The translations under genes and the position numbers were made by a program. The notes under the pieces were generated by a model, which was not told where the DNA came from, did not search any database, and saw nothing but the letters and a program-made list of their open reading frames with translations. From IMG/VR virus record IMGVR_UViG_3300031555_004162, positions 14,478-78,477 of that record: a stretch of DNA of 64,000 bases. The stretch is one strand, 5' to 3'. This document shows positions 14,751-55,897 of this stretch, in pieces. Source of the DNA: a virus (lineage: Duplodnaviria > Heunggongvirae > Uroviricota > Caudoviricetes). How positions within the stretch are numbered: the stretch's first letter is position 1; the number at the start of each line of letters is the position of its first letter.

Positions 14751-15314
14751 CTATAATAAATAATTTAAAGACTTAATTTGTAATTTACAAATAGCTAAAT
14801 CTACATGTTTATTTGTTAATCCTGAATAAAGTCCATTAGAAGTATTTATAAATTCAAATGAATCTACATATGGATGCATGTCTTTCACATCATCATCTAA
14901 AATTACAAAACTTCGAACGATTGTTCTATTTTTATGTAACCACGATTTAATTTCTTTGCCTCTTGCACCTGATTTTAAAGCAGGTGTAATGCCTATTACT
15001 TCAATATTATATTTATTAAGTAAATCAGTAAGTCGTCTTTGGTCTTCATATTGTTCTTCATATGGAAGGTTCCACCAACCATATCTCCAACTACTAGATA
15101 TAACTATCTTAGCATTAGTAGCTTTTACAATTTTAGCTAATCGTTTTACTTTACTCTCATGAATGCCAAAAGGCTTTGTAATACGTTTGTACCAGAGCTC
15201 TAATGGTTTATACTTTATTCTCTTTACAATATTCCAGCCAAGGAGATTCCATTTATTATAACCATTTAATACTCCGTCTATATCTAAAAATATAATGTTA
15301 AATTTTTCTTTCAT
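14751..15314 (-). CDS. HAD-superfamily phosphatase
   Basis: Motif I FLDIDGVL, motif II SSS, a conserved Lys, and motif IV LDDD. Confidence 0.55.
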   Translation of the reverse strand: MKEKFNIIFLDIDGVLNGYNKWNLLGWNIVKRIKYKPLELWYKRITKPFGIHESKVKRLAKIVKATNAKIVISSSWRYGWWNLPYEEQYEDQRRLTDLLNKYNIEVIGITPALKSGARGKEIKSWLHKNRTIVRSFVILDDDVKDMHPYVDSFEFINTSNGLYSGLTNKHVDLAICKLQIKSLNYLL

Positions 15315-25944: not shown

Positions 25945-26298
25945 CTAATTTATTTCCATCCAACCATTCCGTTGAATAATCATCCTCATGTTTTGAACTC
26001 CTACTGGATTCATGCTATGAATTCTAATAGGATAGTTACGTTTAGTTCCTTCAAGCCATTTGAGAAGTTCAATATAATTACCTCCTTGTGATACATACTC
26101 TCCAGCATCATGGTCTATATCTATAACTTCTAATTCAGTTAGTGGGAATTTTAACCCCCATGATTCTTCTTTTATATATCTATTTTCATTTTCCATCTTC
26201 ATAATGATAGACTTTGCTTTGTTCACGGTCTTTACCCAAACATACCCTTTTGGTGCAGGCCTTATATCATCAACCCAAATCTTCATAATTTTCCTCAC
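25945..26298 (-). CDS. hypothetical protein
   Basis: 117-aa ORF. Confidence 0.45.
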   Translation of the reverse strand: MRKIMKIWVDDIRPAPKGYVWVKTVNKAKSIIMKMENENRYIKEESWGLKFPLTELEVIDIDHDAGEYVSQGGNYIELLKWLEGTKRNYPIRIHSMNPVGVQNMRMIIQRNGWMEIN

Positions 26299-28895: not shown

Positions 28896-29191
28896 TGTTT
28901 GTTCCTCCTATGCACAACTAATATTTCACCATTAATTAAATCTGTAAGATTTTTAAGTTCTTCATCAGTTTTAGCTACACGAGTATAAAATCTTACATCT
29001 GTTAATGAACCATCTTCAGCATATTCTCTGGTTGCATAAACTACATGTTCTGCTCCTGAAATTTTAAGATATTCTTCAGCTTCTTTTCTAAAATGATTTA
29101 ATTCATCCGGTAAATTACGAATAGGCATTTGACCTGTAATAATTCCTCGATTTAAACCATCGCTTTGTGTCCATCTAATCCAATTATTCAT
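28892..29191 (-). CDS. hypothetical protein
   Basis: 99-aa ORF. Confidence 0.45.
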   Translation of the reverse strand: MNNWIRWTQSDGLNRGIITGQMPIRNLPDELNHFRKEAEEYLKISGAEHVVYATREYAEDGSLTDVRFYTRVAKTDEELKNLTDLINGEILVVHRRNKQ

Positions 29192-29240
29192 AATTGCATC
29201 TCCTTTAATGAATTATTTATAATAGTTATTTACAGTTATA

Positions 29241-29269
29241 ATTATAACATAAATTTTTATAAATGTAAA
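29241..29269 (-). promoter_or_regulatory. sigma-A-like promoter (TTTACA-N17-TGTTATAAT) driving 28892..29191 and downstream genes
   Basis: On the minus strand, TTTACA at 29264-29269 and TATAAT at 29241-29246 with a 17-nt spacer; a second TGTTATAAT box lies about 60 nt upstream. Confidence 0.45.
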
Positions 29270-29350
29270 TAGATTTTTTATAATTAAATAAAAAATTGTT
29301 ATAATTATATAAAAATACAAATTATATTTATATAATTATAACAATAATAT

Positions 29351-29581
29351 TTAAATATGTTCTATAGAAGAATTATCTTTAAAAAAATCAACCAATATAT
29401 TTCTTACATATAAATCTTTTTTGTAATATGAATCATATCCTTTTTCTTTAGCCTTTTTATTTTTATGTACATAATATTCATTCCATACTTTATCTAACGC
29501 TTCTTTTTTAGAATTTGCTTTTACTATATATTTATCATTATCACCACAAGGAACTATACATTCTACCAAATAAATACTCAC
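29351..29581 (-). CDS. hypothetical protein
   Basis: 76-aa ORF. Confidence 0.4.
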   Translation of the reverse strand: MSIYLVECIVPCGDNDKYIVKANSKKEALDKVWNEYYVHKNKKAKEKGYDSYYKKDLYVRNILVDFFKDNSSIEHI

Positions 29582-29587
29582 TCATAT

Positions 29588-29815
29588 TCACTCCTAACTA
29601 ATCTATAAAATAAACAGTTTTACCTTTTTCATATGCTAATGCTATATTTTTAACTAGTGTTTCAGCTTCTTTAGATGAATTAAATGAACCTATAATGGCT
29701 CTATTTGAATTATAGTCACTAAATGCTCTAACATCTACATGATTTTCATTTTCCTCAATTGTAATAGAAAATTATCATAATTTATGTCTTTTCCATATTT
29801 TAAACTTATTACTCT
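29588..29815 (-). pseudogene. frameshifted small gene (about 77 codons across two frames)
   Basis: ATG at 29815 with AGGAGA 7 nt upstream and a TAATG overlap with the upstream stop. After 27 codons a stop appears inside an A-rich run (gaaaatgaaaatcatg), and the reading continues for about 50 codons in another frame to a stop near 29588. Confidence 0.3.
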
Positions 29816-29817
29816 CA

Positions 29818-30306
29818 TTATAAATCTCCTTTATCACTTATGTAATTGTCCCATATCATTTGTAGATAATCATAATAATCATATTGCATTGCCCATTCTA
29901 CATCAGATTCTTTATTCCATGAAAATGCTTTTTTATTTGCAAATAACGCAAGAAATTTATTAAAATACTCTTTTTGACTTAAATTACCATTTATAGGTTC
30001 TCCATTAGGAAATAACGTTTTACATACAGGAACTATAGTTGCAAAATATGTATGAATATCTTTTATATCCATTTCTCTCTGAAACATTAACATCCAAGCA
30101 GCTTGATTTAAGTCTTGAATATTCTTACTTGTAATCTTAATAATATTAGATACTATATCATTAATATAAAGTGATAAATTTTGAGCATTTTCAAGTGAAT
30201 TAGCAGAATATTTACTGATCATCGTTTTCATTATAAATTCTGCATTTTTATCATTAAGTAAATCATTAATTTTTTGTTCATTTTCATCAGATATATATTT
30301 ATTCAT
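29818..30306 (-). CDS. hypothetical protein
   Basis: 162-aa ORF. Confidence 0.5.
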   Translation of the reverse strand: MNKYISDENEQKINDLLNDKNAEFIMKTMISKYSANSLENAQNLSLYINDIVSNIIKITSKNIQDLNQAAWMLMFQREMDIKDIHTYFATIVPVCKTLFPNGEPINGNLSQKEYFNKFLALFANKKAFSWNKESDVEWAMQYDYYDYLQMIWDNYISDKGDL

Positions 30307-30307
30307 A

Positions 30308-30619
30308 TTAATATCCTCCTAATAAATCTCTTGTTACTTTTCCAGTTAATAAGTCACAAACTGTATTCATATTATGAGTTTTACTTACTAATTCTTTTAT
30401 ATCTTCAGAAGATAAATTAGTTAACTTATTTAATTCTTCTATAGCTTTATTAGCATGTTCCAATTTAGTTTTAAGTATTTCATTTTCTTTAATAAGTGAA
30501 TATTTTTCATCCAACAATTCATCTCTACTTTTTGTTAATGTTTTGATAGTTTTATTTTTAGAATCTATAATTCCTTGAAAATGTTTTTCAGCGGCTGAAA
30601 ATTTCTTTCCTTTTGACAT
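30308..30619 (-). CDS. hypothetical coiled-coil protein
   Basis: 103-aa ORF. Confidence 0.45.
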   Translation of the reverse strand: MSKGKKFSAAEKHFQGIIDSKNKTIKTLTKSRDELLDEKYSLIKENEILKTKLEHANKAIEELNKLTNLSSEDIKELVSKTHNMNTVCDLLTGKVTRDLLGGY

Positions 30620-30624
30620 TTTAC

Positions 30625-30882
30625 TTACACCTCTTCCAACACTAAACGTTTAAAATTATTATTTAAAAAACTAACAACTACATTATCCTCGTGAAAATCT
30701 GTATATATTTCATCTCTTGTCACGTGTTCAAGTATTGCGTCGGTAACTATAATACGTCCATACTCTTCTTTTGTTATAAACCTTTTTATTCTAAAAAGTC
30801 TTAGATAACTAAATCTATTTTCAGGATTTATCCCAATTATAATATCATCACGTTTAAAATTACAATTATAAAATTCATTCAT
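30625..30882 (-). CDS. hypothetical protein
   Basis: 85-aa ORF. Confidence 0.4.
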   Translation of the reverse strand: MNEFYNCNFKRDDIIIGINPENRFSYLRLFRIKRFITKEEYGRIIVTDAILEHVTRDEIYTDFHEDNVVVSFLNNNFKRLVLEEV

Positions 30883-30893
30883 TTAAATTCACC

Positions 30894-31268
30894 TCAAAAT
30901 TGATATTCAGATGCACACTTGTTACAAACCTTTACTACTTCATTTTCTGAATCTACCGGTTCACCGCAACATTCACATATATTTCCATTAAATCTTTTAG
31001 ATGGTCTTGTAATAGTTTTCTGTGAAAAAGTTGCTACTGGTTCTTCAATAGGAACTTCATGATAATCAATTCCTAATATTGTTTCTTCTTCATTTAGCTC
31101 TAATTCTCTATCAATAGGAGCTAAACGAAGTGAATATTTTAACTGATTTTTAGGGTGTCCATTAGTATGTGTAGCAATAGACGTAATATTAGCATCTCCG
31201 TGCATATACAAATAATTTCCAATAATTTGATGTAATTCTGATAATTTTACTACTCTTTTAGTTTTCAT
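30894..31268 (-). CDS. hypothetical protein with C-terminal zinc ribbon
   Basis: CECCGEP...CNKCASEY. Confidence 0.45.
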   Translation of the reverse strand: MKTKRVVKLSELHQIIGNYLYMHGDANITSIATHTNGHPKNQLKYSLRLAPIDRELELNEEETILGIDYHEVPIEEPVATFSQKTITRPSKRFNGNICECCGEPVDSENEVVKVCNKCASEYQF

Positions 31269-31282
31269 TGTATCATCTCCTT

Positions 31283-31456
31283 TTAATCAATATTGTCAAG
31301 TGCATCGATTAATCTTTCATACGACAATGATCTTTCAACTCCAAAAACTTCTACGTCATCATCACTTCTTTTTCCACTACTTAATTTTTCAATTGATTCA
31401 TTTAGCATCGATATTATATTTTTTGCATCTTCTATTGATAGTGTTATATTTTTCAT
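31283..31456 (-). CDS. small ORF (57 aa)
   Basis: ATG preceded by AAAGGAGAT, immediately downstream of the promoter module. Confidence 0.35.
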   Translation of the reverse strand: MKNITLSIEDAKNIISMLNESIEKLSSGKRSDDDVEVFGVERSLSYERLIDALDNID

Positions 31457-31491
31457 ATTTAGTATCTCCTTTACAACTATAATCTATTACA

Positions 31492-31520
31492 ATTATAACA
31501 CATTCTTTTATAATTGTAAA
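31492..31520 (-). promoter_or_regulatory. sigma-A-like promoter module, copy 1
   Basis: On the minus strand, TTTACA at 31515-31520, a 17-nt spacer, and TGTTATAAT with the hexamer at 31492-31497. Flanked by TTACAATTATAA / TTATAATTGTAA repeats from 31487 to 31548. Confidence 0.5.
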
Positions 31521-31601
31521 CCGTTTTTTTATAATTGTAATTAAACTGTAATATTATTTATCTATTAGCTTTTCAATATTTTTATTATTTGACATAATTA
31601 C

Positions 31602-32855
31602 TCACTCCGATGACTTAAAATTATATACAGGCTTAATAAGCTTTATAATCTCTACTGTATCTTCAATATTATTTACAATATCATTAATATTCTTATATGC
31701 TTGAGGAGATTCATCGAGAGTACCTTCATTAATACATGTAGAATAAATACCTGTCATAGATTCTGCAAAATCAGAAAGACTAATAGTTTCTTTAGCTTTA
31801 CCTCTACTCATTAATCTACCAGCACCATGAGGAGCTGAATTATTGTAATCCTCGTTTCCTTTACCTTTACAAATAAGAACTCCATCTCTCATATTAATAG
31901 GAATAACTAACATTTGTCCTTCATAAGCAGCGACCGCACCTTTTCTAATTATGTTATCATCTCCAATATAATTATGAATCGTATCAAACCATTCGGTCTT
32001 AATATTATATTTCCCTTTTTGTTTAATTCTTAACTTTCCACTAGTAGATAATTGAACTTGACAATCATTGAAATAATTCTTTATAAGTTCTTCAGCGATT
32101 GTAAATCTATTCAGTGCAGCGTATTTCTGACAAATTCTCATATCATGTAAATATTTATCTTTATCTTCACCAATAAGATAAAGTAAATTTTTAGGAATCT
32201 TATCTAACTTTGACTTATAATTATTTATGGCTTCTTGAATATCAGATTCCCTTCCAGATGCTTTCATTTCTGCTATTAAGGAATTTATATTATTCTTATC
32301 TTCTTCCTTTCCAGCTTTATTTTGATAATACTTACATACGTCTAATCCTAAATGTCTAGAACCAGTATGAATCATAAGATATTTGTTTCCTTCAAAATCT
32401 TCATCAATTTCACAAAAATGATTCCCCGAACCAAGCGAGCCGATAGCTCTTAATACTTTATCATATTGATGTTTTACCACATCTTTATAACAATACATAT
32501 TTTCAAGTTCGTCAAATTTCTTTTTCTGTTTTGAATTAACTTCAAATCCGAAAGCAACATTTTCACGAAGTATTTTATCAAATCTCTTATAATCTATATC
32601 AACATTTCCTAATGGAATTGTTAGTACACCACAACCAATATCGACTCCAACTAAATTAGGAACTACTTTATCTCCTAAATTAGCTGTAAATCCTATAACA
32701 CATCCTGCTCCAGCGTGACAATCAGGTTGAATTCTTATTTTACAACCTTCAACAAAAGGCTGATTTAATAATTGTATTATCTGACATATACACTCATCTT
32801 CTATAACATCTGTAAATACTTTAGCAGTACCATATTTTCCTTTAAGTTCTAACAT
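31602..32855 (-). CDS. rtcB: RNA-splicing ligase RtcB
   Basis: Motifs GVDIGCGV, CHAGAGC, GSGNHFCEIDED and APHGAGR. Start trimmed to MLELKGKYGTAKVF behind GGAGGAATAAA. Confidence 0.8.
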   Translation of the reverse strand: MLELKGKYGTAKVFTDVIEDECICQIIQLLNQPFVEGCKIRIQPDCHAGAGCVIGFTANLGDKVVPNLVGVDIGCGVLTIPLGNVDIDYKRFDKILRENVAFGFEVNSKQKKKFDELENMYCYKDVVKHQYDKVLRAIGSLGSGNHFCEIDEDFEGNKYLMIHTGSRHLGLDVCKYYQNKAGKEEDKNNINSLIAEMKASGRESDIQEAINNYKSKLDKIPKNLLYLIGEDKDKYLHDMRICQKYAALNRFTIAEELIKNYFNDCQVQLSTSGKLRIKQKGKYNIKTEWFDTIHNYIGDDNIIRKGAVAAYEGQMLVIPINMRDGVLICKGKGNEDYNNSAPHGAGRLMSRGKAKETISLSDFAESMTGIYSTCINEGTLDESPQAYKNINDIVNNIEDTVEIIKLIKPVYNFKSSE

Positions 32856-32856
32856 T

Positions 32857-33099
32857 TTATTCCTCCACTTTTGTAGGTTTATAAAGAGTAGCATCTTCAA
32901 GTTCTTCTAAATCGTAAATAATGCTATTAAGTTTATCTATTACAAGTTCATTAACTTTAAATCCATTTTTATCAATAATACGTTTATCATAACTTATATG
33001 ATGAATAGCTTCATCTATTCGGCTATATGCTTCTTTTATTAACCCTTTATATTTTTTATTTTCATTTTCATCTCTTGGAGTTATTTCATAAGCTTTCAT
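32857..33099 (-). CDS. hypothetical protein
   Basis: Start trimmed to MKAYEITP, which has GAGAGGA upstream. Confidence 0.4.
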   Translation of the reverse strand: MKAYEITPRDENENKKYKGLIKEAYSRIDEAIHHISYDKRIIDKNGFKVNELVIDKLNSIIYDLEELEDATLYKPTKVEE

Positions 33100-33158
33100 A
33101 ATGTTAATCCTCTCTATAATAAATTCTATAATTTTTAAATATAACTCTATTAATAAGT

Positions 33159-33860
33159 TTAGTCCCAATATGCGTTAATATTTTCATAATCAGGATAATT
33201 TTCTTTCATATAAGCGTCTAACTTTACTCTTAAAGCATCTTTTATCTTATTATCACTGTCATAATCACCTACAGGTGGTATACACTCTGTACTAAAAATA
33301 ACTATTTCACCATCTTTTACAATTCCTTGATAATCTGAATTTTTCCACACTTCATAATCAGAACTTTCATCTGCAACACGAGTCACAATAGTTTGATATC
33401 TTGTATTAAAGTTGATAAATGCATCTCTATCATAAAATGCAGCTTTATAAAAGAAATCTGCTCTCTTTTTTCCCTTATTGTCAAATAAATTATTCCACAT
33501 TGAATGGTCCGTTGCTTCAATTTTCCAACCTTCAGGAAGTACTACATTATAAAATAAATCGTCGCACTCATCAACAATAACAATTCCCATTTTCTCATAT
33601 TGTTGTCTTGTGTATTTAATGTTATTTTGCATAATAATCTTGTGTCTTTCTTCCCATTCCATTGAATCCTCTACACCGTTCCATCTTACCTCATTTGGCA
33701 GACAAACGTCATTTAACTTCTTTGGTAGTCTTTGATTTCTTACAACTGATTGTTGACCTCTTCTTTCCTGATTTTCAATAGCTTTAGAAGGATTTTCACC
33801 TTCCATTGCATATAGTATTGCATCCATAAAAGTAATCATATTATCATTATTCATTTTCAT
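33159..33860 (-). CDS. hypothetical protein
   Basis: 233-aa ORF. Confidence 0.5.
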   Translation of the reverse strand: MKMNNDNMITFMDAILYAMEGENPSKAIENQERRGQQSVVRNQRLPKKLNDVCLPNEVRWNGVEDSMEWEERHKIIMQNNIKYTRQQYEKMGIVIVDECDDLFYNVVLPEGWKIEATDHSMWNNLFDNKGKKRADFFYKAAFYDRDAFINFNTRYQTIVTRVADESSDYEVWKNSDYQGIVKDGEIVIFSTECIPPVGDYDSDNKIKDALRVKLDAYMKENYPDYENINAYWD

Positions 33861-33866
33861 TCTCCT

Positions 33867-34151
33867 TTAATTAAAATTAGGTTCGTATTTGACAGCTTTT
33901 TGTTCTTTAGTATATTCTACTTTACCACATTTCTTACAAGTTCTACTCCATCTATCCACTTTCTTTTCAGTATGACCAACTAATTCAGGATAATAATCTG
34001 ATCCTTGGAATCTTGTCTCATATCTTGGTTCTTTTACTATTTCCGGGTCAAACTTTACTTTATCCCATTCATGACAACAATTAGATTGTTCTCTATGTAG
34101 TTCTCTTAATTCTCTTTCATATCTAGCTCTTATTTCTTCTTCTCTTGTCAT
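33867..34151 (-). CDS. hypothetical protein (C-terminal CxxC...CxxC)
   Basis: Start trimmed to MTREEE behind GGAGG; CCHEW...CKKCG. Confidence 0.45.
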   Translation of the reverse strand: MTREEEIRARYERELRELHREQSNCCHEWDKVKFDPEIVKEPRYETRFQGSDYYPELVGHTEKKVDRWSRTCKKCGKVEYTKEQKAVKYEPNFN

Positions 34152-34289
34152 AATTAAACCTCCAATCATATATATTTACATTTTCTAAAGTTTTGACATT
34201 TTCGACATCTAACCCAGTATAAATATTCTTTACCTTTGGTTATTTTACTTAATTCTTTACAAGATTTATTCATCATATCTTTCATATTA

Positions 34290-34457
34290 TTATTCATCAA
34301 ATTCATCAAATTCATTCACTTCTTCTTTTAATTCTTCTAAACAATTTCTACATAATGGAATTCTAATACCATTTACTATCAAAACACCTTTAGTGGTGTT
34401 TCCACATATATCGTAGTTTTCATCAAAGTAATCTTTTACTTCTAATTTAATAGACAT
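34290..34457 (-). CDS. small acidic ORF (55 aa)
   Basis: ATG with GGAGGAA 8 nt upstream; CGN...CRNC and an acidic tail EFDEFDE. Confidence 0.35.
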   Translation of the reverse strand: MSIKLEVKDYFDENYDICGNTTKGVLIVNGIRIPLCRNCLEELKEEVNEFDEFDE

Positions 34458-34460
34458 GAT

Positions 34461-34679
34461 TTATTCCTCCAATTCATAATTATGTACTCTACTATAATCT
34501 ATATTTTCACCCAACCATGACAACATTGTAGAAGTTAATTCTCCATCAATATATAGATTTACTATCCCGCTATGAATACTTCCATCACTAGCAATTGCAA
34601 CTTTTTCAAAATTAAATATTTCAAACGTTCGTCCATCTTTTAAATAACCTTTTGAATTTACGTTTATAATTACCGTCAT
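34461..34679 (-). CDS. hypothetical protein
   Basis: 72-aa ORF. Confidence 0.4.
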   Translation of the reverse strand: MTVIINVNSKGYLKDGRTFEIFNFEKVAIASDGSIHSGIVNLYIDGELTSTMLSWLGENIDYSRVHNYELEE

Positions 34680-34742
34680 ATGATACTCCTTATTTGAATA
34701 ACTGCTTTCTAAGATTTTTATTATTTAAATATTTTTCTTATA

Positions 34743-35018
34743 TTAATAAAATTCTTTTTCAAGACGAATATTATTTTCTTTTACTAATAAACTGAGTTTT
34801 TCTTTTTCACAAACCAATTTATTATATTTATCTTCAAACATCTTATATTTTTCACAAGTTTTATCGTACGAATTAAAACATTTTATTGCATCGCCTGCCC
34901 ATTCAATATCTTCATTAATCTTTTTAATCTGATTTAAAAGTCTCTCTTGACTTCTAATTAATTTTTCAAATTCTTCAAATGAACCATTCTTCCATTTTAA
35001 CATTTGTTCTAAAGTCAT
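34743..35018 (-). CDS. hypothetical coiled-coil protein
   Basis: Start trimmed to MTLEQMLKW, which has AAGGAGG 9 nt upstream. The ORF-track N-terminal extension runs through the promoter and terminator. Confidence 0.45.
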   Translation of the reverse strand: MTLEQMLKWKNGSFEEFEKLIRSQERLLNQIKKINEDIEWAGDAIKCFNSYDKTCEKYKMFEDKYNKLVCEKEKLSLLVKENNIRLEKEFY

Positions 35019-35049
35019 TTTATTAACCTCCTTTATATTTTCTAATATA

Positions 35050-35078
35050 ATTATAACATAAAAATTTATAATTGTAAA
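35050..35078 (-). promoter_or_regulatory. sigma-A-like promoter module, copy 2
   Basis: On the minus strand, TTTACA at 35073-35078, a 17-nt spacer, and TGTTATAAT with the hexamer at 35050-35055. The upstream element TTACAGTTTTATTACAATTATAAGAAAAGGG is conserved. Confidence 0.5.
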
Positions 35079-35112
35079 CCCTTTTCTTATAATTGTAATA
35101 AAACTGTAAAAA

Positions 35113-35143
35113 TAAAAGGAGTCTCTTATGAGACTCCTTTTTA
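35113..35143 (-). terminator. rho-independent terminator
   Basis: Perfect hairpin aaaggagtctc-ttat-gagactccttt flanked by A and T runs; sits immediately upstream of promoter copy 2 on the minus strand. Confidence 0.5.
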
Positions 35144-35467
35144 TATTAATAATATTTAAACTATACACTATATTTTTAATAACTTATCATATAAACAAAA
35201 CAAACAAATAACTAAAAATCTAATTTATACTCATTTTTACTCGGCACAATACATTTACATTCACTTCATAATAAACTTTAAAGAGGTAATCTATATCAAA
35301 TAGTTTAAATATTATGATTATATTTTATTATTAATTTTATCTATTAATAACTGTTTACAAATATTTAATGCAATCACCCATTCAGAATTTATATATTCAT
35401 CCGATTCAATATAATCATTTATTAATCTTATAATTTCTTGATAAGTCATTTCATATCACATCTTTCA

Positions 35468-35989
35468 TCATAATTGAGGTAACATTTCCAATAATTCTTC
35501 AATCTTATTTTTAGTATTATCAGATAATATCATTTTATCTTTATTATTATCATACCAATGCTTTGCAGTACTTTTAGGATTATTATATTTAAATGATGAC
35601 CAATCACATAACATTTCTATAATACAATTTAAAGGCATATCTAATATTTTTTGTTCACCTGAATCTTTTTGTAAAATCCAATATTGCCAATGATGATCAT
35701 TACATTTTTGATGATGGTTCCAAGCTTCATCATATAATGCTTCATTATCGGCACCTGCTTTAGATGGATAAAAATGATGCAAATATGGATAAAATTCTAC
35801 ATCATCATACTTAGATGCATCATGATTATTTATTTTATGTTCTAATTCATGCTCATTAAAATCAAACATTGTTAAAAGATCATCTTTTATAGATTCATAA
35901 GATTTCTTAACGCCATCTATATGATTTTCTAAATATTTATAATATTCTTCAGATCTATCAGATACTCTTTCAGTTAATATTTTCAACAT
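35468..35989 (-). CDS. His/Trp-motif protein, paralog A (WNHH...HHWQYW...MP...CDW)
   Basis: Shares the HHWxYWI...G...L.MP...I.EM.CDW block with 39007..39549. Confidence 0.5.
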   Translation of the reverse strand: MLKILTERVSDRSEEYYKYLENHIDGVKKSYESIKDDLLTMFDFNEHELEHKINNHDASKYDDVEFYPYLHHFYPSKAGADNEALYDEAWNHHQKCNDHHWQYWILQKDSGEQKILDMPLNCIIEMLCDWSSFKYNNPKSTAKHWYDNNKDKMILSDNTKNKIEELLEMLPQL

Positions 35990-36050
35990 TTATTTTCTCC
36001 TTTAAAAAATAAACATGAGACATTTTAATCATGTCTCATGTTTAATAAAA

Positions 36051-36326
36051 TTATTCATTTATAAGTTTTCTTACAGTAGGTGAAAATCTAAATTTAGGAT
36101 TTTTCTTAGCAGGACTTACTTTTTCTTCACCTGTTTTTGGGTTTCTTACTACTCTTTCAGGTTGATCTATTGCTTCAAATTTTCCAAAACTATAAATTTC
36201 TACCTTTTCACCATTCTTTAAATTTTCATTTACTAATTGTACAAATGTATCAATAACCCCTGTAACAGTGTTAATTGATTCTCCTGTAGATATTGCAATC
36301 TTTTCGATTAATTCTTGTTTTTTCAT
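36051..36326 (-). CDS. hup: HU/IHF-family DNA-binding protein
   Basis: Start trimmed to MKKQELIEK behind AAAGGAGAA. GEKVEIYSFGKFEA...RNPKTGEEK...F matches the HU arm and signature. Confidence 0.75.
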   Translation of the reverse strand: MKKQELIEKIAISTGESINTVTGVIDTFVQLVNENLKNGEKVEIYSFGKFEAIDQPERVVRNPKTGEEKVSPAKKNPKFRFSPTVRKLINE

Positions 36327-36352
36327 AATATTTCTCCTTTTATTTAATAATA

Positions 36353-36655
36353 TCACTGCTTATTATATTCATCTAATGCTTTATAAATAGCAGTTTCAAA
36401 CTTAACACGTGTATCAGCTGTAATAGGATGATATATATCAAAAAATCCAGAAACCGGATTATTTTTTTCATCCAATGCAGTGATTTTTTGTGATGGAAAT
36501 GCAATAAACTTTTTCTTATTTCCATTTTCTATTTTTTCAATAACCCTAATATTATGCAAAACCATTTCATTGTCTATTAATACTGAAACTAATGCTTTAA
36601 CAGGTTTAGTAGGATCATTATAAACTTTTTTTACTTGAACGCTTGTAATTATCAT
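36353..36655 (-). CDS. spoVG: SpoVG-like protein
   Basis: KALVSVLIDNEMVLHNIRVIE...FIAFPSQK....DIYHPITADTR aligns along its length with the SpoVG consensus (KA.ASIT.D..FV.HD.RVI....FVAMPS.......DIAHPI). Confidence 0.8.
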   Translation of the reverse strand: MIITSVQVKKVYNDPTKPVKALVSVLIDNEMVLHNIRVIEKIENGNKKKFIAFPSQKITALDEKNNPVSGFFDIYHPITADTRVKFETAIYKALDEYNKQ

Positions 36656-37427: not shown

Positions 37428-38588
37428 TTAAATTAATTTATCTACATGTTGAAATTCATCTAATGTAAATTCATAAACTTTATTTTGAGTATGATTTTGA
37501 AATACAACATCTTTATCACTTATTATATTATAATCGTTTGTAAATGTGTTCATTATTTCTTTAGAAATCCATTCTATAAATTTAACCGGAACACCTTGAG
37601 CTAAACATTGAATTGTAGGAATTTTACATTCATTAGGATAAAATATAAAATCATCCGGATAGCCCATTATTCTAGCATATTCTCTTATATATAAATCTCT
37701 ATTTTCTACAGGATGAATAAATTGAGCTAAACTAGTCATTGAAGGAGCCACTCCGTCAAAATCAAGTCTATATGAAGATTTATCCCATAATCTTTCTCCA
37801 TTATTTTTCTTTTCAATAAAAGATTTTACTTGTTTTTTATGTTCATTCGGAATTTTTTCAATGTCTAGATTATTTAAATTGTTGTATAATCCACACATTA
37901 AAGATTCATTATGTTTTACATATCTATAAAATTCTTCCATATTTTTAATAGCTCTGTTATTATCAAATTCCATATTGGGTGTGTCAGGAGTTAAACCTTC
38001 AAATATTTCTTTTATTGTTGTTTTATTTTGTTTAACAAATTTTATTTCAGGTATTTTTTCATATTTATTTTTATTCCAACCTACAATCATAGTTCTTAAT
38101 CTTCTCATACTTACACCATGATTTCCAGCCATATCTCGTATGATTGTAAATTTATACTTTTCACCTAATATATTCACCATATCTTTTAAAATAGGTAATC
38201 CTAAAGTCACGACTGTTGGTGCATTTTCTATTAAAAATGTATCAGGATTTAAATGATTTATAATATCAAATACTTCATAAAATCTATTATTTACTTTATT
38301 ATCTACTTTTGCATTTTTATTTATAGAACTTAATCCAGAGCATGGATTATTTGAATATAATAAGTTATAATGTTTTTCTTTTAAAGTGTCTAAGAATGCA
38401 TTTTGAGACCACTCTGATGGTCTCTTAATATTTATATTAGGATAATTCTTACAAAAATGATACGCATTAGTATCTGTCATATCTTCAGTCATTTCTAAAA
38501 CAGTATCTATTTTCCATCCTGTATTTAAATGTCCTATGGTCTGACTCCCAGAAAATATATATGCACCTATAGCTGATAATTCATTCAT
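37428..38588 (-). CDS. DNA cytosine-5 methyltransferase-like protein
   Basis: Motif I-like YIFSGSQTIG, motif IV-like NPCSGLS (PCQ.FS), motif VI-like LIENAPTVV (ENV) and motif VIII-like SMRRLRT. Confidence 0.5.
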   Translation of the reverse strand: MNELSAIGAYIFSGSQTIGHLNTGWKIDTVLEMTEDMTDTNAYHFCKNYPNINIKRPSEWSQNAFLDTLKEKHYNLLYSNNPCSGLSSINKNAKVDNKVNNRFYEVFDIINHLNPDTFLIENAPTVVTLGLPILKDMVNILGEKYKFTIIRDMAGNHGVSMRRLRTMIVGWNKNKYEKIPEIKFVKQNKTTIKEIFEGLTPDTPNMEFDNNRAIKNMEEFYRYVKHNESLMCGLYNNLNNLDIEKIPNEHKKQVKSFIEKKNNGERLWDKSSYRLDFDGVAPSMTSLAQFIHPVENRDLYIREYARIMGYPDDFIFYPNECKIPTIQCLAQGVPVKFIEWISKEIMNTFTNDYNIISDKDVVFQNHTQNKVYEFTLDEFQHVDKLI

Positions 38589-39006: not shown

Positions 39007-39549
39007 TCATTTTTCATATGTTTTTTCATATTTTTTAATAATATCTTTTAACTTAAATCTACCAGAGCTATAATCATGTAATACATTAAATAAAAATGTA
39101 TAAGTATCTAAATGTATTTTTATTTTACCACTATTGTATAATCTATTAAAAGTTTTAAAAGGAATATCACAGGTCCAATTATCTTTATTATATGCTTTTC
39201 CAGCTCCTATCCAATCACATATCATTTCTTTAACATATTTAATTGGCATTTTTAATGCTTCTCCACCTGAAGAAAGATTATCAATCCAATATTCCCAATG
39301 ATGTGGATTTCTTCCTCTATGATGTAACCATGCGTATGAATATCCTTTTTCATCTTTTTCATTATCAATTGGACTTCTATCACCTGTATAATATTTAGCA
39401 GAATTAAAAAATTCAGAAAAACTAAATTTAGACCAATCATGCATAAATCCTCTAAAAGGAATTCCAGCTTCAACAGATGCTAAAAACACATAATATTTAT
39501 GTCTGTTTATTATAGCAAAATGTTTTAATAATTTTTTATAATATTTCAT
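39007..39549 (-). CDS. His/Trp-motif protein, paralog B (LHH...HHWEYW...MP...CDW)
   Basis: Shares the conserved block with 35468..35989. Confidence 0.5.
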   Translation of the reverse strand: MKYYKKLLKHFAIINRHKYYVFLASVEAGIPFRGFMHDWSKFSFSEFFNSAKYYTGDRSPIDNEKDEKGYSYAWLHHRGRNPHHWEYWIDNLSSGGEALKMPIKYVKEMICDWIGAGKAYNKDNWTCDIPFKTFNRLYNSGKIKIHLDTYTFLFNVLHDYSSGRFKLKDIIKKYEKTYEK

Positions 39550-40162: not shown

Positions 40163-40423
40163 TTATTTGGAGTTTTTTAGTATTAAATATTTGTGTTTAG
40201 TTGCCATGCCACCACGAATATGTTTATCTTTAAAATTTGATGCAACTAATTTTCTAACTTTTTGATATAATCTTTTATCAATGTATGGTAATTTATAAAG
40301 AAAATCGTATGACAATGTAGATTTACCAATTCCAAACACTTTAGCAGTTTTTCGTATTGTAGATTTATTATCTACGTAATAAATTGCACAAGCTTTTATT
40401 CTATTCTCAAGTTGTTCGTTCAT
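40163..40423 (-). CDS. SpoIIID-like HTH transcriptional regulator
   Basis: Start trimmed to MNEQLEN (GGAG RBS). RIKACAIYYVDNKSTIRKTAKVFGIGKSTLSYDF...LP.I...L...V......KHIRGGMATKHKY parallels B. subtilis SpoIIID (ERTIKIGKYIVETKKTVRVIAKEFGVSKSTVHKDL...RHLRGGEATKLKY). Confidence 0.7.
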   Translation of the reverse strand: MNEQLENRIKACAIYYVDNKSTIRKTAKVFGIGKSTLSYDFLYKLPYIDKRLYQKVRKLVASNFKDKHIRGGMATKHKYLILKNSK

Positions 40424-40472
40424 ATAAATCAACTCCTTTAATTATATTTTATTAAAGGAATCAATAAATATA

Positions 40473-41588: not shown

Positions 41589-42212
41589 TTATTTAAACCT
41601 CTTATCTTTTTGTTTACGCGATTTTAATATATATTTTTTATAATCATTATAATCTTTAAATTTGATATATTCACCAGAATAAACATCAAAACATGAATTA
41701 TCTGCACATAATTCATATGAATTTGTTGAACACACAATGAACACATCTTTATCCTTATTATGTTCATCTTCCATAATTGTTTTAAATAAATATTCTTTTA
41801 TTTCAATAGCATTATCTATGCTTAAACCTGAATCTATAGCATCAAATAAAATCCATAATTCTTTACTATTTTTATGTTGCTGTACAAACCTTGCAATTTT
41901 GCCTGCTATAATACCAAGATTAATATATATTTGTTCACCTTCAGATGATTGCATCAGTGTAGCTGCAGTAGTTATATCATCCTCATAAACTCTTTCAGAT
42001 ATTGATGTTGCTCCACCTTCATATTCATTACTATAATATATTACTGGGATTTTAGATGATTGCAAAGACTCTTTAATTGATTGTAATAAAGTAGTTTTTC
42101 CAGATCCATTGCATCCTATTAAAATAGTAACACCTGGATTTATTTCGATTTCTGATTTTTTATAAATGATATCATCGTATGGTTTTCTTGTAATTTTAAA
42201 AAATCTACTCAT
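41589..42212 (-). CDS. P-loop ATPase (ABC/AAA_21-like)
   Basis: Walker A GCNGSGKTTLLQSI; Walker B-like ILFDAIDSGL. Confidence 0.55.
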   Translation of the reverse strand: MSRFFKITRKPYDDIIYKKSEIEINPGVTILIGCNGSGKTTLLQSIKESLQSSKIPVIYYSNEYEGGATSISERVYEDDITTAATLMQSSEGEQIYINLGIIAGKIARFVQQHKNSKELWILFDAIDSGLSIDNAIEIKEYLFKTIMEDEHNKDKDVFIVCSTNSYELCADNSCFDVYSGEYIKFKDYNDYKKYILKSRKQKDKRFK

Positions 42213-43509: not shown

Positions 43510-44511
43510 TTACTTATTGAATTTAATAGCATTTTCATTAAATAAAGTATTATCACATTCCACAAAATAGTCAAATAGTGGTAACGCTAACTCTCTCATT
43601 TGAGGATGAGCAGCTTTGTCACATCTTAATTCAAAGAAATGTCCCCATTCATAATTATGAGCAGTCATTATAATTTCAGTTTTTAAACTGTTACCAAGTA
43701 CACTTCTAGCTTCTTGAGGAGTAGCTCCTAATTCTAATAACTCAAAGTATGCTTTTTCTGAAGCTTTTATTGCATCTCTCCAAACATGATACTTGTTTCT
43801 TTCAACACTTTGAAGTTCTGCTTCACCATCAAACATTAATGGGTCAATCACCGTGATATTATTATCAAATTTATCTTTAGAATAATTACAATATCTTGTA
43901 GATTCTTGAGCATATGAAGAATCCCTATGTCTAACGATTTCATGTGATACACCTCTATCACAAATAAATTTAATAGATTTCCATCCGTGCATCCATTGTT
44001 CTTCTGGAATTAATGTATTAATATCATCGATTTTAGTCCAATTATTTCTATGTACTTTTTTAAATTTATTACCAAATAATTCATCACAATCATAATCTAA
44101 GACTATTTGCTCACATAATTCAATTAAATGTTCTTTCATATAACTATTAGTCTTATAAGCTTCTAATAAATCTAAAAGAGACCTTGCGCTAAACGACAAT
44201 ATATATCTTAATTTTGTTTCAAAATTACCTTCATCATTACATGAAATAATTTCTGTCGTACTAGATGTTATATATTTTTCATTACTTAATATTTTAAAAA
44301 ATAAATTATTAGGAGTATTACATTGATATACAAATATAAAATGTTCTAACATCGCCCAATGTTTTTTATCATATAAATTTTTAATCATTTTTTTATGACT
44401 TTCATCAGTTATTAAATCTTCTGATTTATAACAAATTCTTGCAATTTTTTCAATATGTTTTTGAGGATTGTCATCATACATTTCTTTAAATGACGGCTTT
44501 ATAATTTTCAT
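43510..44511 (-). CDS. thyX: flavin-dependent thymidylate synthase ThyX
   Basis: ThyX signature RHR-x7-S present as RHRDSSYAQES; longer than typical ThyX (333 aa). Confidence 0.75.
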   Translation of the reverse strand: MKIIKPSFKEMYDDNPQKHIEKIARICYKSEDLITDESHKKMIKNLYDKKHWAMLEHFIFVYQCNTPNNLFFKILSNEKYITSSTTEIISCNDEGNFETKLRYILSFSARSLLDLLEAYKTNSYMKEHLIELCEQIVLDYDCDELFGNKFKKVHRNNWTKIDDINTLIPEEQWMHGWKSIKFICDRGVSHEIVRHRDSSYAQESTRYCNYSKDKFDNNITVIDPLMFDGEAELQSVERNKYHVWRDAIKASEKAYFELLELGATPQEARSVLGNSLKTEIIMTAHNYEWGHFFELRCDKAAHPQMRELALPLFDYFVECDNTLFNENAIKFNK

Positions 44512-50963: not shown

Positions 50964-51335
50964 TTAATCATTTCTCCATTCTTCACATTTGAATCCATTT
51001 AATCTTAACCAATTAGATACAAGATGTCTATGACAAAAATCTTCCGATTTTTCATAACAAATTAATGCAATATCATTTGATTGTTTGTCACATAATTGTT
51101 CTAATTCCATTACCACTTCTGAGGCATCCAGATTATCCAGAATTTCTTTTTTAAATTGTTCTATATAATAACCATTATCTTTATTTTTCTTCCATTCTAT
51201 AAAAAATTGATATTTAGGAGCCAATCTTTTATATTGTAATCCATCCCACCAATCTGGAGCTTTTCCACAAATAGATATTGGAATTATATTTTTAGGTAAC
51301 TTTTTTAAATTTCCAAAATAACTAGTATATATCAC
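50964..51335 (-). CDS. DUF488-like protein
   Basis: The ...ALICYEKSEDFCHRHLVSNWL segment resembles the DUF488 signature (C.E..p..CHR); GTG start with AAAGGAGA upstream. Confidence 0.4.
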   Translation of the reverse strand: MIYTSYFGNLKKLPKNIIPISICGKAPDWWDGLQYKRLAPKYQFFIEWKKNKDNGYYIEQFKKEILDNLDASEVVMELEQLCDKQSNDIALICYEKSEDFCHRHLVSNWLRLNGFKCEEWRND

Positions 51336-55133: not shown

Positions 55134-55260
55134 TGGTCGGAATTAAGAGATTCGAACTCTTCTTAATAAATTAATTGTCAAATACAAAATTTTTAAAGGG
55201 GAAGTTTCATTTAGTATATTTTAATTTATTAAGTGTATAACCACTTTATACCTAATTCCG
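55134..55260 (-). ncRNA. aberrant tRNA-like RNA (127 nt). The acceptor, D and T arms are intact. In place of an anticodon arm there is a 13-bp stem with a ~46-nt loop
   Basis: 5' CGGAATT pairs perfectly with AATTCCG before A-CCA. D-arm is GTAT-AAAGTGGTT-ATAC, T-arm AAGAG-TTCGAAT-CTCTT. The central stem is CTTAATAAATTAA paired with TTAATTTATTAAG. Confidence 0.35.
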
Positions 55261-55427
55261 AAATACCGTGTTTTATAAATGTTAAGTACTATGCATTCAT
55301 ATTTTTATTTAAAGTATAAAAACATACACGGTGATGAAAAACTCCATTTTTTAAAGTAAAAAATATGTAAAACTCAGTTTATTCTATACTTGTAAAAGAT
55401 TTTCTTTGCGCAACCCGAAAACAGGTT

Positions 55428-55516
55428 TGGTGCAAGAGAAGGGATTCGAACCCTCAATTCCTCACGGACGACGGATTTTAAGTCCGTTGCATATACCAAA
55501 ATTCTGCCACTCTTGC
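55428..55516 (-). tRNA. tRNA-Leu (anticodon UAA), type II with long variable arm
   Basis: Acceptor GCAAGAG/CTCTTGC, anticodon loop CTTAAAA, T-loop GTTCGAATC, 3' ACCA encoded. Confidence 0.85.
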
Positions 55517-55689: not shown

Positions 55690-55763
55690 TGGCTGGGGTA
55701 AATGGAATCGAACCAATACTCTAAGAATCAAAATCTTATGTACTACCGTTATACTATACCCCA
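55690..55763 (-). tRNA. tRNA-Gln (anticodon UUG)
   Basis: Acceptor TGGGGTA/TACCCCA, U8, D-arm GTAT/GTAC, anticodon stem TAAGA/TCTTA with loop TTTTGAT, T-loop TTCGATT, 3' GCCA; 74 nt. Confidence 0.85.
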
Positions 55764-55776
55764 ATATATTAAATAT

Positions 55777-55897
55777 TAAAGGTTGAAAATATATTAAATA
55801 ATTAAGAAAAGAGGATTTACCAGGAACTCAATTCTGGTAAAAAGGTAAATGTTATACTTTCGGAAAATTATTCGAAATGAATATTTTCAACCTTTAA
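55777..55897 (-). ncRNA. inverted-repeat-bounded structured element (possible sRNA)
   Basis: Perfect 16-bp arms taaaggttgaaaatat / atattttcaaccttta enclose about 88 nt that contain an internal taccag/ctggta hairpin; no ORF. Confidence 0.3.

What the first reader, a model, noticed from the sequence alone, without database searches (positions are those of the whole stretch)
31602..32855. RtcB RNA ligase encoded together with a phage tRNA cluster: candidate tRNA-repair counter-defence module
ORF 31602..32855 carries all the RtcB signature motifs (GVDIGCG, GSGNHF, HGAGR). The same window encodes tRNA-Leu(UAA), tRNA-Gln(UUG) and a tRNA-like RNA. Phages are known to carry RNA repair enzymes (T4 Pnk/Rnl) to re-ligate tRNAs cut by host anticodon nucleases such as PrrC and RloC, and RtcB seals the 2',3'-cyclic-phosphate and 5'-OH ends those nucleases leave. 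The two tRNAs encoded here read codons (UUA Leu, CAA Gln) that would be frequent in this AT-rich genome. A joint role of tRNA supply plus tRNA repair is plausible. No adjacent RtcA/Pnk-like partner was seen.
Basis: partly seen in the sequence, partly recalled or inferred. Interest (0 to 1): 0.6.

Follow-up and report, generated by a model that had tools for sequence, protein, structure and literature searches.

The report
Ordinary phage RtcB RNA ligase gene
A large, AT-rich gut phage carries an intact and apparently active RtcB RNA-sealing enzyme, a common phage accessory gene that is thought, but has never been shown, to mend RNAs cut by bacterial defences; it is not physically linked to the phage's tRNA genes.

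Summary
ORF 31602..32855 (minus strand, 417 aa) is a true RtcB. It scores 190.8 bits against Pfam PF01139. All six catalytic residues of E. coli RtcB are conserved. The AlphaFold model (pLDDT 93) significantly matches only solved RtcB structures.

It is not unusual. RtcB homologues occur in 683 of 50,697 phage records, form PHROG 1075 ("tRNA splicing ligase"), and have already been read in print as phage counter-defence RNA repair (Iyer et al. 2021).

The "module with a tRNA cluster" is loose. The two tRNAs lie 22.6 kb and about 40 ORFs away. The genes flanking RtcB are not conserved, even in an 80%-identical relative.

Genome-level support for an RNA-damage theme does exist:
- The window also holds a cREC (predicted cyclic-phosphate-processing) gene and a "Swiss-army-knife" HAD phosphatase.
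- RtcB is kept across this family of ~200-kb gut phages.
- In close relatives, RlaP and a CCA-adding enzyme lie at the start of the tRNA hot spot.

Function is inferred, not shown. Verdict: a new member of a known kind, of low to moderate interest. Side notes: an odd tRNA-like RNA and a MazF-like nuclease gene.

The parts
31602..32855 (-). rtcB: 417-aa RtcB-family 3'-phosphate/5'-OH RNA ligase. Predicted metal ligands are D72, C75, H146, H163 and H294; the predicted guanylylation nucleophile is H343.
32861..32866 (-). Shine-Dalgarno GGAGGA, 5 nt upstream of the rtcB ATG. It lies inside the 3' end of the upstream ORF (stop codon 32857..32859), which suggests polycistronic expression.
   Evidence: sequence read directly
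35050..35078 (-). Promoter-like site (TTTACA-17-TG-TATAAT) just downstream of a terminator-like hairpin at 35114..35141. It is a possible start of the transcription unit that ends with rtcB. Evidence is weak, because consensus matches are near chance level in this AT-rich DNA.
   Evidence: 49 sites found against 38 +/- 5 expected
31492..31520 (-). Promoter-like site (TTTACA-17-TG-TATAAT) in the 145-nt gap after the rtcB stop codon. It probably starts the next unit, which would make rtcB the last gene of its unit.
25945..26298 (-). Stand-alone cREC_REC protein (cyclic-phosphate-processing receiver domain, predicted and uncharacterised), 5.3 kb downstream of rtcB on the same strand. Relatives are 113 aa, so the true start is probably at 26286.
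   Evidence: (PF20274, 1.4e-16, 61.4 bits); PMC7824862 and PMC9503650
14751..15314 (-). Stand-alone HAD phosphatase of the 'Swiss Army Knife RNA repair' type, with the DxD motif FLDIDGVLN. It lies 16.3 kb downstream of rtcB.
   Evidence: (PF18143, 1.5e-23, 84.2 bits)
55690..55763 (-). tRNA-Gln(UUG), with CCA encoded. This is the only tRNA found in all nine relatives whose tRNA region was retrieved.
55428..55516 (-). tRNA-Leu(UAA), type II with a long variable arm, with CCA encoded.
55134..55261 (-). tRNA-like element: acceptor stem CGGAAUU/AAUUCCG followed by A and CCA; D arm with GG; T arm AAGAG-UUCGAAU-CUCUU; a perfect 13-bp A/U stem enclosing about 47 nt in place of an anticodon arm; no variable loop. 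It is not a canonical tRNA.
   Evidence: (MFE -24.6 kcal/mol, z = -2.6)
62188..63489 (-). 433-aa protein with an N-terminal PemK/MazF-like endoribonuclease domain. By established knowledge, MazF-type cuts leave the 2',3'-cyclic-phosphate and 5'-OH ends that RtcB seals. It is relevant only to a rival explanation.
   Evidence: PF02452, 3.2e-20, 72.8 bits; phrog_1936, MazF-like growth inhibitor

Best explanation
The gene encodes a catalytically competent, stand-alone RtcB ligase of the common phage clade.

Chemistry. This is established for E. coli and P. horikoshii RtcB and inferred here from full conservation of the active site. With Mn2+ and GTP, the enzyme guanylylates itself on His343. It opens an RNA 2',3'-cyclic phosphate to a 3'-phosphate, transfers GMP to that phosphate, and lets the 5'-OH end attack to restore the phosphodiester. 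No separate kinase or phosphatase is needed.

Biological role (inferred). During infection, probably as part of an early block of accessory genes, the ligase re-seals RNAs of the translation apparatus that metal-independent host defence RNases have cut. Such RNases include anticodon nucleases, toxin-antitoxin RNases and HEPN-type RNases. tRNAs are the most likely substrates. The phage's own tRNA genes act in parallel as replacement supply, not as part of one operon with rtcB.
For: Identity and active site:
- Pfam RtcB scores 190.8 bits and PHROG 1075 gives 5.5e-122.
- E. coli D75, C78, H168, H185, H281 and H337 align to D72, C75, H146, H163, H294 and H343. These residues are invariant in 47 homologues. 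Their roles are taken from PMC9745838.
- The AF2 model has pLDDT 93 and pTM 0.90. All 16 significant PDB matches are RtcB structures, with TM-scores up to 0.71.
- The gene has a good SD and is intact, with no intein.

Retention: RtcB is on relatives' contigs of 201.7 to 258.2 kb at 54-80% identity, while the small genes around it turn over. That points to selection on RtcB itself.

RNA-damage theme in the family:
- cREC and SAK-HAD are in the window.
- cREC is again 9 kb from rtcB in relative L022.
- Close relatives carry RlaP plus a CCA-adding enzyme next to the tRNA genes.
- tRNA sets vary (Gln-UUG always; Lys-UUU, Glu-UUC, Leu-UAA, Tyr, Asn, Met). From my own knowledge, these overlap the classic targets of anticodon nucleases.

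Published comparative genomics reads phage RtcB this way (PMC7824862).
Against: - No biochemical or genetic test of any phage RtcB was found.
- The host is unknown. The only hint is that contigs of this phage family were binned with Candidatus Onthovivens. No host nuclease can therefore be named.
- rtcB is 22.6 kb from the tRNAs and has no conserved neighbour.
- The tRNAs read the commonest Leu and Gln codons, so codon supply alone explains them.
- A HAD 3'-phosphatase would remove the 3'-phosphate that RtcB needs. cREC and HAD may therefore serve another pathway, such as an ATP-dependent ligase outside the window or ADP-ribose metabolism (PMC9503650).
- RtcB enzymes also act on rRNA and on DNA ends in vitro (PMC8051266 abstract; PMC9304027).
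Confidence: 0.55

Rival explanations
1. tRNAs are not the main substrate. RtcB instead repairs rRNA or mRNA, or reverses cuts made by the phage's own MazF-like RNase (62188..63489). This would be a cut-and-rejoin circuit like the one reported for E. coli MazF and RtcB.
For: A PemK/MazF domain is encoded in the same window. By established knowledge, MazF-type cuts leave 2',3'-cyclic-phosphate and 5'-OH ends. A bacterial RtcB repairs damaged ribosomes together with PrfH (PMC9304027). The second- and third-ranked NCBIfam matches, after an intein-containing RtcB model, are the release-factor-H-coupled RtcB models, though both score far below their cut-offs.
Against: The MazF-like gene is 29 kb from rtcB, and its presence in relatives was not examined. 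No PrfH or RF-like gene was found in the window. The NCBIfam matches (104.7 and 80.5 bits) are far below the cut-offs (407 and 271.8) and cover the N-terminal half only.
Confidence: 0.15
2. RtcB splices a phage-encoded interrupted RNA, for example by maturing the tRNA-like element at 55134..55261 after an endonuclease removes its long inserted arm. This would resemble archaeal and eukaryal tRNA splicing.
For: The element keeps an acceptor stem, D arm, T arm and ACCA end, but has about 73 nt where a 17-nt anticodon arm should be. Databases name RtcB a 'tRNA splicing ligase'.
Against: ARAGORN finds no tRNA there even with intron search. No 5-bp/7-nt anticodon arm with U33 and R37 can be formed by any simple excision. 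No bulge-helix-bulge motif appears in the predicted fold. No splicing endonuclease or archease was found in the window. The element is absent from relatives that keep RtcB. Relatives also carry aberrant tRNA calls such as Phe(aaa) and Asn(att), which suggests decaying tRNA genes at this hot spot.
Confidence: 0.04
3. RtcB acts on DNA ends, by 3'-phosphate capping or joining, as part of the phage's DNA metabolism rather than RNA repair.
For: RtcB can ligate 5'-OH DNA strands in vitro (PMC8051266 abstract). The gene lies in a region rich in DNA-metabolism genes: HU, a C5 methylase, RecA, ThyX and SbcCD.
Against: Those genes are not adjacent to rtcB or co-conserved with it at short range. To my knowledge, no in vivo DNA role for any RtcB is established. 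RNA-end-processing genes (cREC, HAD, and RlaP and the CCA enzyme in relatives) are the recurring companions.
Confidence: 0.04
4. The gene is a dispensable passenger acquired from Firmicutes and plays no role in lytic growth under most conditions.
For: Cellular homologues at about 53-57% identity occur in Lachnospiraceae and Eubacterium. The gene sits among fast-turning small accessory ORFs.
Against: It is retained at 54-80% identity, with every catalytic residue intact, on many ~200-kb relatives while its neighbours are replaced.
Confidence: 0.12

Closest known systems
Phage RtcB clade (PHROG 1075, 'tRNA splicing ligase'), e.g. Clostridioides phage phiCD211 gp96, Bacillus Bastille-like phages (Kioshi gp23, Deep Blue) and mycobacteriophages
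   Same: Full-length match to the PHROG profile (5.5e-122). Identity is 44-50% over the whole length to 604 phage records. It is a stand-alone gene among small unknown ORFs with no conserved partner.
   Different: No phage record is closer than 50% identity, and no phage record matches the 7-kb stretch around rtcB (29000..36000) at DNA level. It belongs to an uncultured lineage of ~200-kb gut phages at about 24% GC. It carries a beta-hairpin insertion (residues ~262-288) shared only with its nearest relatives.
E. coli RtcB (rtcBA operon, RtcR-regulated RNA repair)
   Same: Same family, with all metal ligands and the His-GMP nucleophile conserved. The same ligation chemistry is therefore expected.
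   Different: Only 32% identity. No RtcA cyclase and no RtcR regulator nearby. It is phage-borne and probably expressed from phage promoters.
T4 Pnkp + Rnl1 repair of PrrC-cut tRNA-Lys
   Same: The same proposed logic: a phage enzyme reverses a host anticodon-nuclease cut.
   Different: Unrelated enzymes and chemistry. T4 must heal the ends (kinase and phosphatase) and then seal 5'-P/3'-OH with an ATP-dependent ligase. RtcB seals 3'-P/5'-OH directly using GTP. No Rnl or Pnkp was found in the window. No host nuclease is known here.
RtcB2-PrfH ribosome rescue and repair system
   Same: The release-factor-H-coupled RtcB models rank second and third among the NCBIfam matches (PRK09588 and TIGR03073, N-terminal half only).
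   Different: Scores of 104.7 and 80.5 bits are far below the cut-offs of 407 and 271.8. No PrfH-like gene is in the window.
Archaeal and metazoan tRNA-splicing ligase RtcB/RTCB with archease
   Same: Same fold (TM-score 0.6-0.7 to P. horikoshii and human RTCB) and the same active site.
   Different: 18-22% identity in the structural alignments. It is shorter (417 aa against about 480-505 aa). No archease, no splicing endonuclease and no intron-containing tRNA was detected.

Membership tests
RtcB family (PF01139), 3'-phosphate/5'-OH RNA ligases | Significant full-length match to the family profile | tested here: met
   Pfam: 190.8 bits against a cut-off of 27, E = 6.6e-56, profile positions 90-425 of 426 in the best stretch. 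PHROG 1075: 409 bits.
RtcB family (PF01139), 3'-phosphate/5'-OH RNA ligases | Binuclear-metal ligands (E. coli Asp75, Cys78, His168, His185, His281) | tested here: met
   They align to D72, C75, H146, H163 and H294 and are invariant in 47 homologues. Residue roles come from PMC9745838.
RtcB family (PF01139), 3'-phosphate/5'-OH RNA ligases | Histidine nucleophile for guanylylation (E. coli His337, in HGAGR) | tested here: met
   H343 in SAPHGAGR aligns with E. coli H337. It also aligns with the His of the CHGAGR motif in human RTCB.
RtcB family (PF01139), 3'-phosphate/5'-OH RNA ligases | RtcB fold | tested here: met
   AF2 pLDDT 93 and pTM 0.90. All 16 PDB matches with E <= 0.001 are RtcB structures; the next match has E = 0.29.
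RtcB family (PF01139), 3'-phosphate/5'-OH RNA ligases | Mn2+/GTP-dependent sealing of 2',3'-cyclic-phosphate or 3'-phosphate ends to 5'-OH ends | not testable with these tools
   Needs purified protein.
NCBIfam equivalogs (PRK09588 / TIGR03073, release-factor-H-coupled RtcB) | Score above the curated cut-off | tested here: not met
   104.7 bits against 407, and 80.5 bits against 271.8; N-terminal half only.
rtcBA RNA repair operon | Adjacent RtcA cyclase and RtcR regulator | tested here: not met
   No RTC or RtcR-type Pfam hit on any ORF of 50 aa or more in the window. The flanking ORFs have no family match.
Phage tRNA-repair counter-defence (T4 Pnkp/Rnl1-PrrC paradigm) | Phage-encoded ligase able to seal nuclease-cut tRNA | tested here: inconclusive
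   An intact RtcB active site is present, but substrate choice is unknown.
Phage tRNA-repair counter-defence (T4 Pnkp/Rnl1-PrrC paradigm) | Host anticodon nuclease activated by infection | not testable with these tools
   The host is unknown. The genome-contig scan found only distant RtcBs at 23-31% identity. The only hint is that contigs of this phage family were binned with Candidatus Onthovivens MAGs.
Phage tRNA-repair counter-defence (T4 Pnkp/Rnl1-PrrC paradigm) | Loss of the ligase restricts the phage on nuclease-bearing hosts | not testable with these tools
   A genetic experiment is needed. No such test for any phage RtcB was found in the library.
   22,573 nt and about 40 ORFs separate them. 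In relative L001, the 10 kb on each side of rtcB holds no tRNA.
Archaeal/eukaryal-type tRNA splicing | Intron-containing tRNA genes, a splicing endonuclease and archease | tested here: not met
   ARAGORN with intron search finds none. No endonuclease or archease Pfam hits. The tRNA-like element yields no canonical anticodon arm.

The most novel reading that the evidence does not exclude
This family of ~200-kb gut phages runs a two-locus system against tRNA damage. One locus holds a fixed RtcB with a nearby cREC. The other is a hot spot that combines varying replacement tRNAs, including the usual anticodon-nuclease targets Gln-UUG, Lys-UUU and Glu-UUC, with, in some members, an RlaP plus CCA-adding-enzyme repair cassette. 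In this phage, the non-canonical tRNA-like RNA (acceptor, D and T arms, ACCA end, and a 13-bp arm instead of an anticodon arm) would be a functional decoy or cofactor. It could be an anticodon-less tRNA mimic that titrates a host tRNA nuclease, or one that recruits repair enzymes as Y RNAs do next to rtcB in Salmonella.
Probability: 0.08. Interest if true: 0.6.

Novelty: new member of a known kind. Interest (0 to 1): 0.25.

Why it matters
The gene adds one more member, from an uncultured lineage of ~200-kb gut phages, to a very common class of phage accessory genes. Its value is as context rather than as a discovery.

- RtcB stays conserved while every neighbouring gene turns over.
- The same phage family shuffles tRNA genes, RlaP and a CCA-adding enzyme at one hot spot.

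Together these suggest strong pressure from RNA-cutting host defences in gut Bacillota. What phage RtcB actually repairs remains experimentally open. This phage gives no special handle on that question, because its host is unknown.

Tried and rejected
1. Near-identical DNA in known phages: none. IMG/VR relatives of RtcB: none. An exact match of the tRNA-like 3' half in IMG/VR: none.

2. Source contig: look-ups by the exact RtcB sequence failed twice, although a 100%-identical JGI protein exists on a 114.6-kb contig.

3. A conserved partner gene next to rtcB: a ~120-130-aa ORF follows rtcB in phiCD211, Kioshi and L001. These ORFs are unrelated to each other and to the window's neighbours, and none is a cREC.

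4. Archease, RtcA, RtcR, PrfH, Pnkp, Rnl1/Rnl2, 2H phosphoesterase, Ro60/TROVE, RlaP and CCA-adding enzyme in the window: no Pfam hit at E <= 1e-3 on the ORFs of 50 aa or more that were scanned. These were submitted as linker-joined concatenates, plus single proteins.

5. tRNA-like element as an intron-bearing tRNA, tmRNA or Y RNA: ARAGORN with -i, -ps and -m finds nothing. Rfam at E <= 10 gives no tRNA or Y-RNA hit there. No canonical anticodon arm can be formed. No copy is present in seven related loci.

6. PADLOC: no defence-system match for RtcB, cREC, HAD or the MazF-like protein. Only generic P-loop matches were found for the 207-aa ATPase.

7. Host inference from species-representative genomes: only distant RtcBs at 23-31% identity.

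8. Promoter and terminator scans: matches are close to chance in this AT-rich DNA, so the transcription-unit boundaries are tentative.
Full report
**1. The observation**

The ORF exists, on the minus strand, at 31602..32855. It is 417 aa from an ATG. A GGAGGA Shine-Dalgarno lies 5 nt upstream, inside the end of the preceding ORF.

ARAGORN and Rfam agree on two tRNA genes: Leu(UAA) at 55428..55516 and Gln(UUG) at 55690..55763. Both are on the minus strand and both encode CCA. A third, tRNA-like element lies at about 55134..55261 on the minus strand.

The codon claim holds. In 96 predicted genes, TTA is 68% of Leu codons (56 per 1000, the fifth commonest codon) and CAA is 86% of Gln codons.

**2. 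What the protein is**

- Pfam RtcB scores 190.8 bits against a cut-off of 27.
- PHROG 1075, "tRNA splicing ligase", gives 5.5e-122 over the full length.
- Sequence search of the PDB finds only RtcB proteins.
- The NCBIfam equivalog models are all far below their cut-offs, so the protein belongs to none of those curated subfamilies.

I aligned the protein to E. coli RtcB, taken from NC_000913.3; identity is 32%. The two-metal ligands Asp75, Cys78, His168, His185 and His281, and the guanylylation nucleophile His337, correspond to D72, C75, H146, H163, H294 and H343. Residue roles come from PMC9745838. These positions are invariant in 47 homologues.

An AlphaFold2 model built on that alignment has mean pLDDT 93 and pTM 0.90. 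All 16 significant Foldseek matches in the PDB are RtcB structures, from human, P. horikoshii, T. thermophilus and zebrafish, with TM-scores up to 0.71. The next match has E = 0.29. The protein is therefore an RtcB with a complete catalytic apparatus. Activity itself is inferred.

**3. The genome**

The window is about 24% GC, and 127 of 131 ORFs are on the minus strand. Neither the 7-kb stretch around rtcB (29000..36000) nor the tRNA region matched any deposited phage at DNA level, apart from a short tRNA-Leu match.

Protein searches place the window in an uncultured family of gut-metagenome phages with contigs of 162 to 258 kb, including Hadza and other human or animal gut samples. SpoVG, SpoIIID and HU genes point to a Bacillota host. 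Two contigs of the family were binned with Candidatus Onthovivens (Bacilli) MAGs. That is only a hint.

In the 201,741-bp relative L001, RtcB is 80% identical and follows the same gene series: ThyX, DUF488, RecA, SpoIIID, DUF5662, methylase, SpoVG, HU, DUF5662.

**4. Is there a module?**

rtcB and the nearest tRNA are 22,573 nt and about 40 ORFs apart. The ORFs that flank rtcB have no Pfam or PHROG match. They are not conserved in L001, in phiCD211 or in Bacillus phage Kioshi.

RtcA, RtcR, archease, PrfH, Pnkp, Rnl, Ro60, RlaP and CCA-adding enzyme are all absent from the window at Pfam E <= 1e-3. rtcB is thus a stand-alone gene, probably the last gene of a polycistronic unit. A promoter-like site with an extended -10 follows its stop codon. 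Such matches are near chance level in this DNA.

**5.

The window holds two genes from families predicted to process RNA ends:
- a stand-alone cREC_REC protein at 25945..26298 (61.4 bits), 5.3 kb downstream of rtcB;
- a "Swiss Army Knife" HAD phosphatase at 14751..15314 (84.2 bits).

cREC is predicted, not proven, to open cyclic phosphates. It is reported to be linked to RNA ligases in phages (PMC7824862; PMC9503650). In relative L022, cREC again lies about 9 kb downstream of rtcB on the same strand, with different genes in between.

One caution applies. RtcB needs no end-healing, and a 3'-phosphatase would destroy its substrate. cREC and HAD may therefore serve another ligase outside the window, or ADP-ribose metabolism.

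**6. The tRNA locus is a hot spot**

The locus lies downstream of a family-specific marker gene (55993..56511). The nine relatives whose tRNA region was retrieved all carry Gln(UUG) there. They add different mixtures of Leu(UAA), Lys(UUU), Met, Tyr and Glu(UUC), plus some aberrant calls such as Phe(aaa) and Asn(att).

Two of the closest relatives retrieved (marker protein 84-88% identical) carry RlaP (PF10127, "RNA ligase-associated Pol-beta") and a CCA-adding enzyme between the marker gene and tRNA-Gln. RlaP is a frequent member of bacterial RtcB operons (PMC12776372).

RtcB itself sits on family contigs of 201.7, 204.9, 207.7, 208.2, 208.5, 212.7 and 258.2 kb. Four of these lengths equal the lengths of marker-gene contigs. 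At family level, tRNA supply and RNA or tRNA repair functions do co-occur and turn over together. This fits pressure from RNA-cutting defences. It also fits plain codon-supply selection for the tRNAs.

**7. Mechanism**

- Shown: family membership, an intact active site, the RtcB fold, and retention across the family.
- Established for the family (PMC9745838): RtcB-His-GMP formation, hydrolysis of the cyclic phosphate, RNA(3')pp(5')G formation, and attack by the 5'-OH.
- Inferred: the substrates are translation RNAs, most likely tRNAs, cut by host metal-independent RNases.

Confidence in the biological role is about 0.55, and in the enzymology about 0.9.

Rivals:
- repair of rRNA or mRNA, or reversal of cuts by the phage's own MazF-like RNase at 62188..63489;
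- splicing of the tRNA-like element, which is disfavoured;
- a role at DNA ends;
- a dispensable passenger gene.

**8. Comparison with what is known, and novelty**

RtcB homologues occur in 683 of 50,697 phage records and are mostly annotated as tRNA splicing ligase. Iyer et al. 2021 already describe phage RtcB, ATP-grasp ligases, cRec and SAK-HAD as supplements to phage tRNAs in counter-defence. No paper in the library tests a phage RtcB experimentally.

This is a new member of a known kind. It is at most 50% identical to any deposited phage protein and sits in a new phage lineage. Interest is low to moderate (0.25).

**9. The tRNA-like element**

It has:
- a 7-bp acceptor stem starting C1-G72, then A73 and CCA;
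- a D arm with the GG dinucleotide;
- a canonical T arm (UUCGAAU loop);
- no variable loop;
- a perfect 13-bp A/U stem enclosing about 47 nt where the anticodon arm should be.

Its predicted fold is only modestly better than shuffled sequence (z = -2.6). It is not found in the relatives examined. The most economical reading is a decayed or rearranged tRNA gene at a fast-evolving hot spot. A functional tRNA mimic cannot be excluded.

Noticed in passing
window 55134..55261 (-): A non-canonical tRNA-like RNA. It has an acceptor stem (C1-G72, A73, CCA), a D arm and a T arm, but a perfect 13-bp A/U stem enclosing about 47 nt where the anticodon arm should be, and no variable loop. ARAGORN and Rfam do not call it, and it is absent from seven related loci. 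It is either a decayed tRNA or a tRNA mimic.
   Followed up: partly
L012 4998..7470; L013 2242..4680 (relatives; equivalent to window ~55770..55990): In two of the closest relatives, RlaP (PF10127) and a CCA-adding enzyme (PolyA_pol + HD + tRNA_NucTran2_2) lie between the marker gene and tRNA-Gln, in the same hot spot as the window's tRNAs. Other relatives carry differing tRNA sets there: Lys-UUU, Met, Tyr, Glu-UUC, and aberrant Phe(aaa) and Asn(att).
   Followed up: partly
window 62188..63489 (-): A 433-aa protein with an N-terminal PemK/MazF-like endoribonuclease domain (72.8 bits; PHROG 'MazF-like growth inhibitor') and a ~300-aa C-terminal extension of unknown function. It lies just upstream of the SbcD- and SbcC-like genes. 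No antitoxin was identified.
   Followed up: partly
window 14751..15314 (-) and 25945..26298 (-): A stand-alone SAK-type HAD phosphatase and a stand-alone cREC domain protein. Both families are predicted RNA-end or ADP-ribose processing enzymes with no experimental characterisation. cREC homologues are very numerous in metagenomes (3507 hits).
   Followed up: partly
window 43510..44511, 56523..57065, 57185..58465, 58482..59204, 37428..38588 (all -): A set of nucleotide and DNA-modification genes: ThyX, dUTPase, a TET-associated-type glycosyltransferase (PHROG 'beta-glucosyl-HMC-alpha-glucosyltransferase'), dCMP deaminase and a C5 cytosine methylase. Together they suggest a hypermodified phage DNA. 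Relative L007 adds a CTP_transf_like gene at this locus.
   Followed up: no
window 36051..36655, 40163..40432 (-): Host-like regulators HU, SpoVG and SpoIIID are encoded by the phage and conserved in relative L001. This points to a Bacillota host, and SpoIIID is otherwise a sporulation regulator. Two family contigs were binned with Candidatus Onthovivens MAGs.
   Followed up: partly
L001 1..436 compared with window 43510..44511: The ThyX gene of the 201.7-kb relative is 650 aa and carries an intein with an HNH domain. The window's ThyX is 333 aa and has no intein.
   Followed up: no
phage records H5, H8, H22, H23; P0032, P0120: Some phage rtcB genes match in two pieces spread over ~2.0-2.2 kb, or encode 616-661-aa products. 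The top NCBIfam hit is an intein-containing RtcB model. RtcB appears to be a recurrent target of inteins or other insertions. The window's copy is uninterrupted.
   Followed up: no
window 35468..35989 and 39007..39549 (-): Two paralogous DUF5662 proteins (104 and 117 bits), both also present in relative L001. Their function is unknown.
   Followed up: no
window 41589..42212 (-): A 207-aa P-loop ATPase next to RecA. Its N-terminal ~40-100 residues match AriA, PtuA and GajA-type defence ATPase models in PADLOC. This is probably only the shared ABC/OLD-type P-loop.
   Followed up: no
window 51539..53116 (-) and 50964..51335 (-): A 525-aa SPFH/Band-7 (flotillin-like) membrane protein with a long coiled-coil, alanine- and glutamate-rich tail, and a DUF488-N3a protein. 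The DUF488 gene is conserved next to ThyX in L001.
   Followed up: no
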